Positions 51,201-54,200 of a stretch of DNA of 64,000 nt are shown here, piece by piece. Origin of the DNA: Escherichia coli (GTDB taxonomy: Bacteria > Pseudomonadota > Gammaproteobacteria > Enterobacterales > Enterobacteriaceae); the NCBI RefSeq assembly GCF_003790525.1, contig NZ_CP033636.1; one strand, given 5' to 3'. The stretch's first letter is position 1; every line of letters begins with the position of its first letter. The position numbers were made by a program.

Positions 51201-54200
51201 TACGCAGGGCAGGTTAACCCGAAATATGGGCAAGAGCCTGGACGTCAGTTTTATACCCATATTTCGGATCAATACAGCCCGTTTTACACCTGCATAATCA
51301 GTCGGGTCAGGGATTCAACCCATGTTCTCGATGGCTTGCTGTACCACGAAAGCGACCTGGAAATCAGGGAACATTACACCGATACCGCTGGTTTCACCGA
51401 TCATGTCTTTGCCCTGATGCATCTGTTGGGATTTGCGTTCTGTCCGCGAATCAGGGATCTCCACGACAAAAAACTGTTTATCAAAGGGAAAGCAGAGAAA
51501 TACCCGGCGCTTCAGTCACTGATATCAACGACCAGCCTGAATCTGAAAGAGATCGAAATCCACTGGCGTGAAGTGCTGCGTCTGGCAACCTCGATAAAGC
51601 AGGGAACCGTGACGGCATCCCTGATGCTGAAAAAGCTTGCCAGCTATCCCAAGCAAAACGGACTTGCCAAAGCACTGAGAGAAATTGGCCGCATTGAGCG
51701 AACCCTGTTTATGCTCGACTGGTTCCGCGACCCGGCTCTGCGTCGGCGGGTACAGGCGGGGCTGAATAAAGGCGAAGCCCGTAACGCGCTGGCGCGTGCG
51801 GTATTTATGCACCGACTGGGAGAAATCAGGGACAGAAAACCGGAAAATCAGAGCTATCGCGCCAGTGGACTGACGCTGCTGACGGCTGCCATATCCCTGT
51901 GGAATACCGTCTATATGGAAAGAGCGGTCGATGCCCTGAAGCGTAAAGGGGTGAAGATCAACGAGCAACTGCTGTCGCATTTGTCGCCGTTGGGCTGGGA
52001 ACACATCAATCTGACAGGTGATTATATCTGGAAAAGCAACCGGATACCGGCTTCTGGTAAGTTTCGTCGGCTAAGACCAGCTAAAGTCGAAAGGTCAAAA
52101 AACAGCCTTAACGTACAATAATTTTCGATATCCAAACTGACCCCGAATACAAGGACAATGCCGGTACCGCCTGATTACTTCTGGCGTCGTCTACAATGTT
52201 ACTCCAGGCATATGCTGCGTCGTCCGGGGTTTGTTTTGGATCTATGTCCAATGTCGGCCAGACGTGGCCCTGATGATTCTTGCCCTTTGTACAGGAAGTG
52301 ATTAAGTGTACTGAGCGTTCAGAGAACATTATCTTCCTTACATACCCATAGAACAGCTTTCTAAGAACGGTGGGCTCGGCTGAAAATTACAAATCAGCCC
52401 CTTTCACGGCATCATTTTGATTCTTCGCGTCTGCCCCAGTAAGATGACCGGTTTTCTGCATGACAGTGTTATTCCTAACAAACGCAACACAAAACCACGC
52501 CAGCCAGAGCAAATTTTTTCATTTGCTGCGTAAAGCCTATTGTTTTCTCTTTTAAGCTTCGCCCACTCGTTACAGAGGGTAACATCATCAAGCGCTGTTA
52601 TATGCTTCGCCTCACCTTCGACGATAACGGTATGGATACCGTATGCTGTAAATCTCATACTATTTTCCAGAACCCAGTTGCGGTATTCGTCGAGTCCACC
52701 TTCGGAACCGGTAGCTCTGCGCCACATTTCAATTTGCTTGTGTGATGGGTCAAGTGTACTTGTCATTGAAGCCTCGTCTCAGCGATAACGCTTGAAATAG
52801 CCCGCTTTGGTCATCATGAAATTAGCCATCTGACTGGCGATTTGATTGTATCTTACTCATAGTGCCCTACCTATAGGTTAAAAAGGGGCATTTTCGCTTT
52901 ATAGCGTGTTCAGCAGCATCAATCCTCCCAAGAAAGGCTGGCTTATTAAGCCGGTCCATCATTTTCTGTATATCTCTCATCAATTTTTATATCCGCCCTG
53001 GAGTGCACCGTTCAAGCACACCGATTAGGCAGATAGTCACTAGTTAACTCTTTACTAGTGACTAAATTCCATTGATATACGTGACAACGTCACGTCATGA
53101 AAGCTTTTAAATGCCTATTTTTCATACAATGGGATTTAATTAGGAGTAAATCCCATAGGCTTACATAAGGATGACAATTAAAAGCGTTAAATATCAACCA
53201 GATAGAATGATTACCCCCAATTAATGGGCTCATCACATTATTTCACTGGCTGGGGTTATTGCTGGCATATCTGAAAGTGCTAATATGTTAGTCATTAGTA
53301 ATTAGTAAAGCCTTTACTAAACGCGTTTCTACGTAATTTCTATAGGTTTTATAGTGTCCTACCTTTGCTCAAATCAAAATGTTCTGACATACCAAAATGG
53401 AGTGTAAAATGACTCAAAACCAGGGTTCTGAGCCAGTACCGGCGAGCCGGACAGGGCAGCTCATCAGCGCCCGGGATATGGCCATGCAGAAATTCGAAGA
53501 AGGGATGCGGTTAATCTCGGAAGCGTCGGAACTGTGCGGTCTCTCTCTCTTCACCAGCAGAATTATGCAGCCCAACGCATTTGGTCTTCCGTCGTCACTG
53601 GATCGCACCATCGAGGAGGGGCGTAAGGAAATTGACCGTAAAACGTGGAAAAGGCTCTTTGAAGAAACAGGTATGGACCGGTACTGGAACCATAAGCAAA
53701 AAGAAGCCTTTAACGAATCCCTTCGTACGGATCCGCCCGTCGCTTCCCTGGAGATTGTTAAGGGAACATTACAGCATGCACTGGCTAACAGACGAGACAC
53801 CCTTGCAGAAGGTTTCGTTGATGTTCTCAACAAGCTTGACCGAAGTTTCAAAAGCAATGCCAGGCAATATACAATGCCAAAAAAGCTTGTTCTTCGGGGG
53901 ATTTTTCCTGGTGTGAACGTGCTGAGGTACAACGGTTTCTCGCAGGACAATCACTTTTGTTTACGCGACTTTGAGAATATTGTATGCATCTGTTCTGATA
54001 CTCCAACACCTGCAACCGGCGGTGGGCTGAGTATGGTCGACAGGCTGACGGCCATGAGAAATACAGAATTCACAGGCGAGGTCAGTGATGAGAATGGCTG
54101 GCGGTGTCGCCTGTTTGAGAATGGAAACGTTCATATTTGCATCGACAGTATCTCGCTTCTGAATGCTCTGAACGATCTTATCAGCATATATTTTGCAAAC

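What the first reader, a model, noticed from the sequence alone, without database searches (positions are those of the whole stretch)
52767..53396. Palindrome-rich 630-bp intergenic region at the resistance-island/backbone junction
The region contains a near-perfect palindrome agtcactagt...actagtgact, an adjacent acgtgac-aac-gtcacgt palindrome, tagtaaag/ctttacta repeats, and two copies of a tagtgYcctacct motif. The density of operator-like sites upstream of the 276-aa and coiled-coil genes suggests a regulatory hub, centromere-like site or origin-associated repeats.
Basis: seen in the sequence. Interest (0 to 1): 0.4.

Follow-up and report, generated by a model that had tools for sequence, protein, structure and literature searches.

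The report
Conserved promoter-operator module, IncHI plasmids
The palindrome-rich stretch is real and conserved across a family of large resistance plasmids, and is most likely the control region of a two-gene operon: a promoter flanked by two repeat-built binding sites, probably for the operon's own long coiled-coil DNA-binding protein. That makes it a new example of a known kind of plasmid switch rather than a new kind of element.

Summary
The window is an IncHI2 plasmid. There are 3 perfect hairpins against 0.14 expected, the ssDNA fold z is about -6, and the region is the top GC-corrected outlier of 637 windows.

The informative part is a ~300-bp module (53033-53341). It is conserved in order and spacing upstream of the DUF4942 / 401-aa coiled-coil operon in eleven lineages whose DUF4942 is 54-100% identical: IncHI2, IncHI1 and unnamed relatives. 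The module holds:
- Box A, two plus two inverted heptamers.
- An invariant GTGAC-N3-GTCAC.
- A 10-bp-stem hairpin with compensatory changes.
- A conserved sigma-70 promoter (TTGCTG-16-TGcTAATAT).
- Box B, three tandem TTAGTMA heptamers, a 5-bp spacer and an inverted heptamer, lying over the predicted start site.

Boxes A and B are inverted copies of each other. In two lineages they have a different sequence, and there the putative recognition helix of the coiled-coil protein also differs. That protein has KfrA-type architecture: a helical head and a ~270-residue helix.

Best reading: an autoregulated promoter-operator region, KfrA-like in logic. It is not an origin, oriT, parS or a mobile-element relic, and it does not fit a Frpo-type ssDNA promoter. 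The resistance-island junction is really at 52141/52142. The tagtgYcctacct pair is not conserved.

The parts
53033..53065 (.). Box A, the distal operator-like site: [ATAGTCA][CTAGTTA]-ACTCT-[TTACTAG][TGACTAA]. It is two heptamers, a 5-bp spacer and two inverted heptamers, and is an inverted copy of Box B.
   Evidence: Read from the sequence; palindrome I5. It is present at the same relative place in all lineages, with lineage-specific sequence. It pairs column by column with Box B in 21 pairs, 11 of them with changes on both sides.
53079..53095 (.). ACGTGAC-AAC-GTCACGT palindrome. The core GTGAC-N3-GTCAC is essentially invariant while its 3-nt centre varies freely. Its partner is unknown.
   Evidence: It is the single match in the 64 kb, against 0.05 expected. 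It is exact in 10 of 11 lineages and has one mismatch in L018. Its centres are AAC, ACC, GGT, ACT, AGT and GTT.
53129..53156 (.). Central hairpin or palindrome, ATGGGATTTA-N8-TAAATCCCAT. It forms the tip of an imperfect ~125-nt hairpin domain spanning 53072-53196.
   Evidence: The arms are conserved between IncHI1 and IncHI2 although overall identity was too low for blastn to detect. Two stem positions change on both sides: G-C to C-G in L015, L016 and L018, and T-A to A-T in L015 and L016. It is degenerate in L019 and absent in L022.
53259..53264 (+). Predicted -35 hexamer, TTGCTG.
   Evidence: Read from the sequence. A TTG/TTA element is aligned here in all lineages. It lies below the threshold of the consensus scan.
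53278..53286 (+). Predicted extended -10, TGcTAATAT, 16 nt after the -35. The inferred start site is at about 53292-53295.
   Evidence: A TGnTAnnnT element or a good -10 sits immediately 5' of Box B in every lineage: TGcTAATCT, TGtTACATT, TGaTAGAAT, TATACT preceded by TTAACA-16, and TATAAA. The start site is inferred, not measured.
53288..53320 (+). Box B, the proximal operator-like site over the predicted start site: [TTAGTCA][TTAGTAA][TTAGTAA]-AGCCT-[TTACTAA].
   Evidence: (5 of the window's 15 TTAGTMA matches lie in 53059-53320). The 7-5-7 core is conserved as TTAGTAA-N5-TTACTAA in IncHI2, IncHI1, L017, L018 and L019. It is replaced by CTCATTA-N5-TAATGAA in L015 and CTCATAA-N5-TTATGAA in L016.
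53329..53341 (+). Conserved motif in the predicted 5' leader, CTACGTAATTTCT (consensus about YTRYGYGAATTYT). Its function is unknown.
   Evidence: It aligns in all lineages downstream of Box B.
53409..54227 (+). First gene of the controlled operon: a DUF4942 protein of 272 aa from ATG 53409.
   Evidence: Pfam PF13708, E 2.8e-26; RefSeq annotation. Homologues sit in the leading regions of IncL and IncI/K plasmids and are transcribed toward oriT.
54224..55429 (+). Second gene, its start overlapping the DUF4942 stop. It encodes a 401-aa protein with a helical N-terminal head and one ~270-residue helix (KfrA-type architecture). It is the candidate binder of Boxes A and B.
52859..52872 (+). First copy of ATAGTGYCCTACCT. 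It is not part of the module and is judged a chance repeat.
   Evidence: It reads ATAGTGCCCAACCT in the other IncHI2 lineage.
53351..53364 (+). Second copy of ATAGTGYCCTACCT. It is not conserved, and it spans the point where a Tn7-like element is inserted in many other IncHI2 plasmids.
   Evidence: (AGAGGGTCCTACCT in p13E573).

Best explanation
The informative part of the region (53033-53341) is the double-stranded control region of the DUF4942 / coiled-coil operon.

A sigma-70 promoter with an extended -10 (TTGCTG-16-TGcTAATAT, 53259-53286) fires rightward. Box B starts 2 nt after the -10 and covers the predicted start site. It is built of 7-bp units: three tandem TTAGTMA, a 5-bp spacer and one inverted unit. 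Box A, 262 bp upstream, is an inverted copy made of two plus two units.

I infer that a plasmid-encoded, sequence-specific protein binds both boxes and represses the promoter. The most likely candidate is the operon's own second product, which has the head-plus-long-coiled-coil build of KfrA-type autorepressors. Its coiled-coil tail could bridge the two boxes.

Such negative autoregulation would give a burst of expression when the plasmid enters a repressor-free recipient and a low steady state afterwards. The protein-DNA complex might additionally serve plasmid positioning, as reported for KfrA.

Shown: the anatomy, its conservation, the co-variation of the two boxes, the conserved promoter-like elements and the predicted protein architecture.

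Inferred: the start site, repression, the identity of the binder, and bridging. The invariant GTGAC-N3-GTCAC and the central hairpin are conserved parts of the module whose partners I cannot name.
For: - The window is IncHI2 backbone. The region is single-copy and more than 99% identical in about 700 plasmids.
- The same ordered set (Box A, GTGAC palindrome, hairpin, -35/-10, Box B) sits upstream of DUF4942 plus a coiled-coil gene in IncHI1 and in five more distant lineages. The left-hand neighbour differs each time and in L015 is co-directional, so the module belongs to the rightward operon.
- A -10 hexamer, mostly TGnTAnnnT, lies immediately 5' of Box B in all lineages, with a TTG/TTA -35 element 16-17 nt upstream.
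- The boxes are 7-5-7 palindromes with extra tandem heptamers on their inner sides. A and B change together between lineages: 21 aligned pairs, 11 with changes on both sides, 94.7% paired against 86% in shuffles, 0/500.
- Mismatches show no strand bias: 10 G.T cells against 7 A.C cells on the + strand. That is what symmetric duplex sites predict.
- The 401-aa protein is modelled as a four-helix head plus one helix spanning residues 110-382. The head resembles winged-helix/HTH domains weakly.
- The helix following the invariant GG is GGSF[A/S/K]R[A/S]QE wherever half-sites are TTAGTAA, and GGRI[S/H]NAT[D/T] where they are TAATGAG.
- RA3 KfrA represses its own promoter through three direct plus two inverted 9-nt repeats around the -10. 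That layout is very close to Box B (PMC7783346).
- No further good copies of the operator occur in about 110 kb of IncHI2 sequence, which fits local autoregulation.
Against: - There is no experimental start site, footprint or reporter data.
- The strict promoter scan finds nothing here. The -35 matches only 3 of 6 positions.
- The head domain has no significant sequence similarity to KfrA: no Pfam KfrA_N hit, hhalign E 0.5, and only 21 relatives among 1.84 billion representatives, none linking to KfrA.
- The helix/half-site correlation rests on essentially one evolutionary switch, in the two most divergent lineages. A third helix variant (GGSYKKASEM, L022) keeps TAGTTA-type sites.
- Spacing between Box A and Box B (246-287 bp) is not in a constant helical phase.
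- Many IncHI2 plasmids carry a Tn7-like insertion between Box B and the gene. Tight control by this region is therefore dispensable for plasmid survival.
- The compensatory changes fit single-strand pairing equally well.
Confidence: 0.5

Rival explanations
1. The promoter and operators are as in the best explanation, but the boxes are bound by a different regulator. Candidates are another plasmid-encoded repressor encoded elsewhere on the ~250-kb plasmid, a small ribbon-helix-helix protein of the omega type that reads 7-bp heptads, or a host factor. The coiled-coil protein would then play no part in control.
For: - Contiguous 7-bp units in direct and inverted order are the hallmark of omega-type heptad operators (own knowledge).
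- There is no sequence link to KfrA.
Against: - No RHH or HTH protein was found among the conserved neighbours. The 67-aa, 55-aa, 120-aa and DUF1173 products have no such Pfam or PHROG match.
- The operator sequence occurs only here in about 110 kb searched. That argues for a local regulator rather than a global one.
- Box sequences switch in the same lineages where the coiled-coil head's helix switches.
- A host factor would not explain lineage-specific box sequences.
Confidence: 0.2
2. The module works as single-stranded DNA on the transferred strand during conjugation. Box A pairs with Box B to close a ~290-nt multi-hairpin structure. That structure would act as an ssDNA promoter (Frpo/ssi-like) or a priming or roadblock signal, giving early expression of DUF4942 in the recipient.
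For: - The single-strand fold is very strong (z about -6).
- The RNAalifold consensus has an A:B stem plus two hairpins, with 13 of 36 pairs showing changes on both sides.
- DUF4942 genes are leading-region genes transcribed toward oriT in IncL and IncI/K plasmids.
- In IncHI2 the operon also points toward Tra1/traI.
- New sequence classes of ssDNA promoter are still being found (PMC12672017).
Against: - The conserved -35/-10 lie outside the conserved stems and are not reconstituted by any conserved pairing (and inspection of L015).
- The structure is a set of local hairpins, not one long hairpin.
- The module is 34% GC. Published Frpo elements are 57-69% GC (10.1101/2025.04.03.647016), and the IncI/K upstream regions of ardA and DUF4942 are 61-63% GC.
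- G.T and A.C mismatches are balanced, 10 against 7, so no strand is favoured.
- The locus is about 34 kb and about 45 genes from Tra1.
- There is no sequence similarity to IncL or IncI/K leading regions.
- The direction of IncHI transfer is not established here.
Confidence: 0.15
3. The conserved pairings are RNA structure. The module would be a long structured leader or a small RNA transcribed across it, controlling translation or stability of the DUF4942 message, for example as a thermosensor.
For: - The covariation statistics are the same as for the ssDNA rival.
- IncHI functions are temperature-regulated, and in R27 many non-tra genes are more expressed at 37 C (PMC7366339).
Against: - The only conserved promoter lies between the hairpins and Box B, so Box A, the GTGAC palindrome and the central hairpin would not be in the transcript.
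- No Rfam family matches, even at E <= 10.
- There is no G.U excess on either strand.
- No conserved promoter was found upstream of Box A (inspection).
Confidence: 0.07
4. The region is a cis site for DNA transactions: a centromere (parS/parC), a multimer-resolution site, an iteron origin, an oriT, or the decayed ends of a mobile element.
For: - It has inverted repeats about 260 bp apart and clustered short repeats.
- The region is a hot spot for transposon insertion in other plasmids.
Against: - No ParA/ParM, recombinase, Rep or relaxase gene is adjacent in any lineage.
- IncHI partition, replication and oriT functions map elsewhere (own knowledge of R27).
- The module is single-copy.
- It diverges in step with the adjacent genes across lineages, which a mobile insertion would not do.
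Confidence: 0.05

Closest known systems
KfrA autorepressor and its repetitive operator O_K on IncU plasmid RA3; also kfrA of IncP RK2/R751
   Same: - The protein has a small helical DNA-binding head followed by a very long alpha-helical coiled coil.
- The operator is made of short units, several tandem and one or more inverted, placed right at the gene's own promoter. RA3 has three direct 9-mers, the -10, then two inverted 9-mers (PMC7783346). Here there are three direct 7-mers, a 5-bp spacer and one inverted 7-mer, starting 2 nt after the -10.
- The operator motif is unique on the plasmid.
   Different: - There is no detectable sequence homology of the head to KfrA_N.
- The units are 7 bp rather than 9 bp.
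- A second, inverted operator lies 246-287 bp upstream.
- The coiled-coil gene is second in the operon, behind a DUF4942 gene, and has no kfrB/kfrC or korA/korB context.
- Two further conserved palindromes lie between the operators.
- Binding and repression are untested.
Frpo/ssi single-stranded DNA promoters of F and IncI leading regions (classes 1-3 of Wen et al. 2025)
   Same: - A highly structured ~300-nt non-coding element sits upstream of a gene type (DUF4942) found in leading regions.
- The operon is oriented toward the transfer region.
   Different: - The module is AT-rich (34% GC), not GC-rich.
- It folds into several local hairpins rather than one long hairpin.
- The -35/-10 are not rebuilt by pairing.
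- There is no strand bias in mismatches.
- It lies about 34 kb from Tra1.
- It has no sequence similarity to those regions.
Omega (ribbon-helix-helix) heptad operators of pSM19035/inc18 plasmids
   Same: - The DNA units are 7 bp, arranged contiguously in direct and inverted orientation.
- They control plasmid maintenance genes and serve as centromere-like sites (own knowledge).
   Different: - The unit sequence differs (TTAGTMA against WATCACW).
- A 5-bp spacer separates the inverted units.
- No RHH protein was found nearby.
- The host phylum differs.

Membership tests
KfrA-type autoregulated module | Protein with a globular N-terminal head and a long alpha-helical coiled-coil tail. This is the criterion the field itself uses, since KfrAs share little sequence (PMC7783346). 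| tested here: met
   The AlphaFold2 model of the 401-aa product has four short helices at 41-98, then a continuous helix at 110-382 with pLDDT mostly >90. Pfam gives only coiled-coil noise in residues 256-406.
KfrA-type autoregulated module | Sequence homology of the head to KfrA_N or to known KfrA proteins. | tested here: not met
   No Pfam KfrA_N hit appears even at E <= 10. hhalign against R751 KfrA aligns only the LR..VG-GSF motif, with E 0.5. The exhaustive profile search finds 21 proteins, all of this small family or spurious.
KfrA-type autoregulated module | Operator of three or more short repeats, direct and inverted, overlapping the gene's own promoter. | tested here: met
   Box B has three tandem heptamers plus one inverted, starts 2 nt after the predicted -10, and is conserved in position in all lineages. 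The promoter itself is predicted, not mapped.
KfrA-type autoregulated module | Site-specific binding of the protein to the repeats, and autorepression. | not testable with these tools
   The only evidence is indirect. The putative recognition helix and the half-site sequence switch together in L015/L016.
Frpo/ssi ssDNA promoter | One long hairpin on the transferred strand that rebuilds -35 and -10 boxes. | tested here: not met
   The MFE and consensus structures are separate local hairpins plus an A:B closing stem. The conserved -35/-10 (53259-53286) are unpaired in the consensus.
Frpo/ssi ssDNA promoter | Position in the leading region, with the downstream genes readable from the transferred strand. 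| tested here: inconclusive
   The operon points toward Tra1/traI but lies about 34 kb away. The nick site and direction of IncHI transfer were not established here.
Frpo/ssi ssDNA promoter | Strand-specific folding, with G.T tolerated and A.C avoided on the functional strand. | tested here: not met
   On the + strand there are 10 G.T cells against 7 A.C cells, and the reverse on the - strand.
Partition centromere (parS/parC) | Adjacent genes for a ParA/ParM NTPase and a centromere-binding adaptor. | tested here: not met
   The neighbours are a DUF4942 protein, the coiled-coil protein, a DUF1173 protein, a Dcm-type methylase, a DUF6884 protein and an H-NS protein.
Iteron replication origin | Three or more direct 17-22-bp iterons next to a rep initiator gene. 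| tested here: not met
   The repeats are 7-bp units in two inverted boxes. No rep gene lies within the annotated flanks.
oriT | Adjacency to relaxase or accessory genes, and a nic region. | tested here: not met
   The traI/Tra1 cluster is about 34 kb to the right in p13E573-HI2. Mobilisation itself is not testable here.
Mobile-element end or MITE | Several copies in the genome, target-site duplication, and patchy presence at a locus. | tested here: not met
   There is a single copy in the window and in 49 kb more of backbone. The module is always at the same locus and diverges with the neighbouring genes.
Omega-type heptad operator (RHH) | A small ribbon-helix-helix regulator encoded with the heptad arrays. 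| tested here: not met
   Heptad arrays are present, but none of the small conserved neighbours matches an RHH family.

The most novel reading that the evidence does not exclude
The module is more than a duplex operator. Boxes A and B would pair in single-stranded or extruded (cruciform) DNA to close a ~290-nt structure carrying the invariant GTGAC-N3-GTCAC and the central hairpin. This would be an AT-rich, previously undescribed class of entry-sensing element that switches on the DUF4942 / coiled-coil establishment operon when IncHI DNA arrives in a recipient. A variant reading: the invariant pair of GTSAC sites is read according to its methylation state, set by the adjacent orphan C5-methylase.
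Probability: 0.12. Interest if true: 0.7.

Novelty: new variant of a known kind. Interest (0 to 1): 0.4.

Why it matters
IncHI1 and IncHI2 plasmids are major carriers of typhoid, mcr, NDM and other resistance, yet most of their roughly 200 backbone genes have no assigned function.

This analysis defines a conserved cis-regulatory module. It assigns a testable role to two 'hypothetical' backbone genes, one of them a coiled-coil protein built like the KfrA plasmid-maintenance factors. It also ties them to a gene family (DUF4942) that sits in the first-entering region of IncI and IncL plasmids.

If the autoregulation is confirmed, it would extend KfrA-type control to the IncHI group. It would also give a handle on how these plasmids establish or position themselves.

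The module also marks a recurrent insertion point for resistance and metal-tolerance transposons, which is useful for comparative typing.

Tried and rejected
- **Rfam.** The gathering scan of the whole window and the E <= 10 scan of 52700-53500 gave nothing relevant.
- **Strict sigma-70 scan.** It found no sites. The promoter proposed here rests on cross-lineage conservation instead.
- **A second copy in the window.** There is none. The extra 'places' in other plasmids are the two sides of transposon insertions.
- **A conserved leftward promoter next to Box A, or using the GTGAC palindrome as a -35.** Rejected, because spacing and orientation are not conserved and the left neighbour varies.
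- **Helical phasing of Box A and Box B as a test for looping.** There is no consistent phase, so the test is uninformative at this distance.
- **An operator regulon.** No other good TTAGTAA-N5-TTACTAA or GTGAC-N3-GTCAC sites occur in the window or in 49 kb of further backbone.
- **Linking the head domain to KfrA by profile methods.** This failed.
- **IncHI5 (pA708-IMP).** Its DUF4942 gene is 30% identical and lacks the module.
- **Chance resemblances to the TrpR operator, CRP, Xer/cer and SlyA.** Considered from memory and dropped, because the matching bases are not the conserved ones.
- **The tagtgYcctacct repeat as a site.** Rejected because it is not conserved.
- **The L019 'long inverted repeat'.** It turned out to be a mini Tn7-like remnant, not Box A/B.
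Full report
**What the window is and where the region sits**

A megablast of 52300-53900 hits 1176 plasmid records, mostly conjugative replicons of 200-400 kb from Escherichia, Salmonella and Enterobacter. The records fetched for inspection were typed IncHI2A/MOBH. About 700 records are at least 99% identical.

The 630-bp stretch lies between a 120-aa ORF on the minus strand (52404-52766) and a DUF4942 gene on the plus strand. RefSeq starts the DUF4942 gene at ATG 53409, with GGAG at 53399-53402. A 401-aa gene follows it, and its start overlaps the DUF4942 stop.

Alignment with an uninterrupted IncHI2 backbone (p13E573-HI2) shows that homology resumes at 52142, just after the Tn3-family tnpA, inside a truncated DUF6884 gene. 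The intergenic region is therefore about 0.6 kb inside the backbone, not at the island junction.

The density is well beyond chance:
- The region holds 3 perfect hairpins with a stem of at least 8 bp. Dinucleotide shuffles give 0.14, and 0 of 1000 reach 3.
- Folded as single-stranded DNA, 53020-53335 gives z = -6.1 on the + strand and -5.8 on the - strand.
- After correcting for GC content, 53001-53316 is the most structure-prone of 637 windows in the 64 kb.
- GTGACNNNGTCAC is expected 0.05 times in the window.

The tagtgYcctacct pair is different. In the second IncHI2 lineage the two copies share only 10 of 14 positions, and IncHI1 has neither. I treat it as chance.

**Conservation**

blastn finds the region only in IncHI2 plasmids. 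tblastn with the DUF4942 protein leads to IncHI1 plasmids (63% identity) with the same gene order: H-NS ... DUF6884, then a 500-575-bp gap, then DUF4942, a ~400-aa protein, a small ORF, DUF1173, a small ORF and a Dcm-type methylase.

Aligning the gaps shows islands of identity in a diverged background: Box A, GTGAC-N3-GTCACG, the ATGGGATTTA hairpin, GTGCTAAT, Box B and CTACG.

A protein search followed by contig look-ups gave six more lineages whose DUF4942 is 54-65% identical (L015-L019 and L022). Each has a 640-1300-bp non-coding stretch upstream. All keep the same ordered parts.

The left-hand neighbour differs each time: a 120-aa ORF, DUF6884, a co-directional GIY-YIG gene, an FRG-domain gene, and others. 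The module therefore belongs to the rightward operon. IncHI5, whose DUF4942 is 30% identical, lacks it.

**Anatomy**

Box A (53033-53065) reads [ATAGTCA][CTAGTTA]-ACTCT-[TTACTAG][TGACTAA]. Box B (53288-53320) reads [TTAGTCA][TTAGTAA][TTAGTAA]-AGCCT-[TTACTAA]. Five of the window's fifteen TTAGTMA matches lie in these 262 bp.

The common core is a 7-5-7 palindrome, TTAGTAA-N5-TTACTAA, with a variable spacer. It is found in IncHI2, IncHI1, L017, L018 and L019. L022 has the close variant CTAGTTA-N5-TTACTAT. In L015 and L016 both boxes instead read TCATTAC-C-GGTAATGA and CTCATAAC-AAA-GTTATGA, with extra TAATGAG units. In each lineage Box A is the inverted copy of Box B, and the extra tandem units face inward.

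Directly 5' of Box B every lineage has a -10 hexamer with T1, A2 and T6, usually preceded by TG: TGcTAATAT, TGcTAATCT, TGtTACATT, TGaTAGAAT, TATACT and TATAAA. A TTG/TTA hexamer lies 16-17 nt further up. In L015 the pair is a good TTAACA-16-TATACT.

The strict scan misses the window's copy (TTGCTG-16-TAATAT). Conservation of both elements and their spacing across lineages argues for a real sigma-70 promoter. Its start site would fall at about 53292-53295, inside Box B.

**Single-strand structure or duplex sites?**

RNAalifold on nine lineages predicts three helices:
- an A:B stem of 21 pairs, 11 with changes on both sides;
- the invariant GTGAC hairpin;
- the central hairpin of 10 pairs, 2 with changes on both sides.

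Overall 94.7% of cells pair, against 86% in shuffles (0 of 500) and 29-51% when the partners are slid.

This is strong co-variation, but it does not decide the issue. Two inverted copies of a palindromic protein site that co-evolve with their protein produce the same signal.

Three observations favour duplex sites:
1. Mismatches are unbiased: 10 G.T cells against 7 A.C cells on the + strand, and the reverse on the - strand. A functional single strand should tolerate G.T and avoid A.C.
2. The conserved -35/-10 are not inside any conserved stem.
3. The 5-bp spacers vary as uncontacted operator centres do.

Helical phasing of A and B was uninformative: the distances are 246-287 bp with no constant phase.

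**The candidate binder**

The 401-aa product has a conserved N-terminal region followed by heptad-rich sequence. AlphaFold2, run with nine homologues, gives four short helices at 41-98 and one continuous helix at 110-382, with pLDDT above 90 over most of it.

This head-plus-long-tail build is the one used to define KfrA-type plasmid proteins. Those proteins are autorepressors. RA3 KfrA binds three direct plus two inverted 9-nt repeats around its own -10, and that motif is unique on the plasmid (PMC7783346). Box B has nearly the same layout.

In the head, the helix after the invariant GG is GGSF[A/S/K]R[A/S]QE in every TTAGTAA lineage, even where overall identity falls to 31-42%. It is GGRI[S/H]NAT[D/T] in the two TAATGAG lineages.

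This is the correlation expected if that helix reads the heptamers. It amounts to one evolutionary switch, though, and a third variant (GGSYKKASEM, L022) still has TAGTTA-type sites.

Sequence homology to KfrA could not be shown:
- Pfam gives no KfrA_N hit.
- hhalign aligns LRNAVG-GSF with R751 KfrA VRKQLGSGSF, but only at E 0.5.
- An exhaustive profile search of 1.84 billion representatives finds only 21 proteins, all of this family or spurious.

**The ssDNA-promoter rival**

DUF4942 genes lie in the leading regions of IncL pOXA-48 and of an IncI/K plasmid, and are transcribed toward oriT. The IncHI2 operon also points toward Tra1/traI, about 34 kb to its right. I therefore took the Frpo-type reading seriously (PMC11541004, PMC12672017).

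The points against it are these:
- The module is 34% GC. Frpo elements are reported at 57-69%. The IncI/K regions upstream of ardA and DUF4942 are 61-63% GC and fold at -0.23 to -0.28 kcal/mol per nt, against -0.15 for this module.
- The module forms several local hairpins rather than one long hairpin.
- No pairing rebuilds the -35/-10.
- There is no strand bias in mismatches.
- There is no sequence similarity to those leading regions.

The reading is not excluded. New classes of ssDNA promoter are still being described, and the polarity of IncHI transfer was not established here.

**What remains unexplained**

GTGAC-N3-GTCAC is exact in 10 of 11 lineages, with every possible kind of centre. 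It keeps its place 28-57 bp inside Box A even where the boxes have changed sequence. That points to a different, conserved partner or a structural role.

The central hairpin has two compensatory changes, but it is degenerate in L019 and absent in L022. The leader motif at 53329-53341 is also conserved.

Many IncHI2 plasmids carry a Tn7-like element inserted between Box B and the start codon. Tight coupling of this control region to the operon is therefore not essential for plasmid survival.

**Verdict**

The best-supported reading is a conserved promoter with two repeat-built operators for a plasmid-encoded protein, most probably the operon's own KfrA-like product. On that reading the region is a new variant of a known kind of plasmid autoregulatory module, with two extra conserved palindromes of unknown role.

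Confidence in 'promoter plus protein-binding operators' is about 0.7. This is the sum of the best explanation (0.5) and the rival in which a different protein binds the same operators (0.2). Confidence that the coiled-coil protein is the binder is about 0.4-0.5. The scored confidence of 0.5 for the best explanation sits at the top of that range.

Noticed in passing
window 49092-52142: The Tn3-family transposase gene ends at 52121. Homology to an uninterrupted IncHI2 backbone resumes at 52142, inside the DUF6884 ('tgtA5 cluster protein 2') gene, which the insertion truncates. This is the real resistance-island/backbone junction.
   Followed up: partly
window ~53361-53364; L011 9596-9700; L004 3940-4000: In many IncHI2 plasmids (the ~91%-identity lineage and R478-like ones) an element is inserted between Box B and the DUF4942 start codon, separating the operon from its control region. 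Its ends look Tn7-like (TGTCCGAAGACAATAAAGTTGTAC... and ...GACAACTTTAATGTCTGTGTACA, with repeated ACAATAAAGTTGT units). pco and rcnR genes lie just inside one end.
   Followed up: partly
L019 2420-2660 (about -580 to -340 relative to the DUF4942 start): A remnant of about 240 bp carries four copies (two direct, two inverted) of ACAATAAAGTTTGTACA, the same unit as the Tn7-like ends. It sits inside the module between the GTGAC palindrome and a degenerate central hairpin.
   Followed up: partly
L003 (Serratia marcescens p1), window-equivalent ~52943: A Tn3 carrying blaTEM-1 is inserted in the left half of the same intergenic region. The region is thus hit by at least three different transposons in different plasmids.
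   Followed up: no
L013 6608-6955 (IncI/K plasmid, upstream of its DUF4942 gene beside nikA/oriT): This is a 348-nt intergenic region of 61% GC that folds very strongly as ssDNA (-98 kcal/mol on the minus strand). It resembles the region upstream of ardA on the same plasmid and looks like a candidate ssDNA promoter, in contrast to the AT-rich IncHI module.
   Followed up: partly
window 52936-52956: A terminator-like hairpin (GGCTGGCTTATTAAGCCGGTC followed by a T-rich run) lies in the IncHI2-specific left half of the intergenic region, between the module and the 120-aa ORF. A weaker one lies on the opposite strand.
   Followed up: no
window 52867-52983 (-) and 52404-52766 (-): A 38-aa ORF in the left half loses its stop codon in the p13E573 lineage, where it is annotated as 46 aa. 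The 120-aa ORF is 126 aa there because of a 1-nt indel. Both may be weakly constrained or not genes at all.
   Followed up: no
window 53195-53255: This patch is only about 50% identical between the two main IncHI2 lineages, although the flanks are over 90% identical. It is a hypervariable spacer between the hairpin domain and the promoter.
   Followed up: no
window 57279-58748 (-) and 53081-53093: An orphan Dcm-type C5-methylase lies in the neighbouring, oppositely oriented operon in every lineage. The invariant palindrome consists of two GTSAC sites. Whether the methylase targets them is unknown.
   Followed up: no
window 214-330, 17471-17546 (+), 40755-40830 (-): Rfam gathering-level hits: an ALIL frameshift pseudoknot (an IS3-family element) and two attI/AAC_AAD-leader matches. 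The latter mark two class 1 integron attI sites in the resistance region.
   Followed up: no
R27 genes R0154 and R0159/R0160 (literature, PMC7366339): In R27 microarrays the cytosine methylase R0154 is 4.7-fold higher at 25 C, while R0159 and R0160 are 2.7-fold higher at 37 C. By gene order these two may be the genes flanking the IncHI1 copy of this module, but I did not verify the mapping.
   Followed up: no
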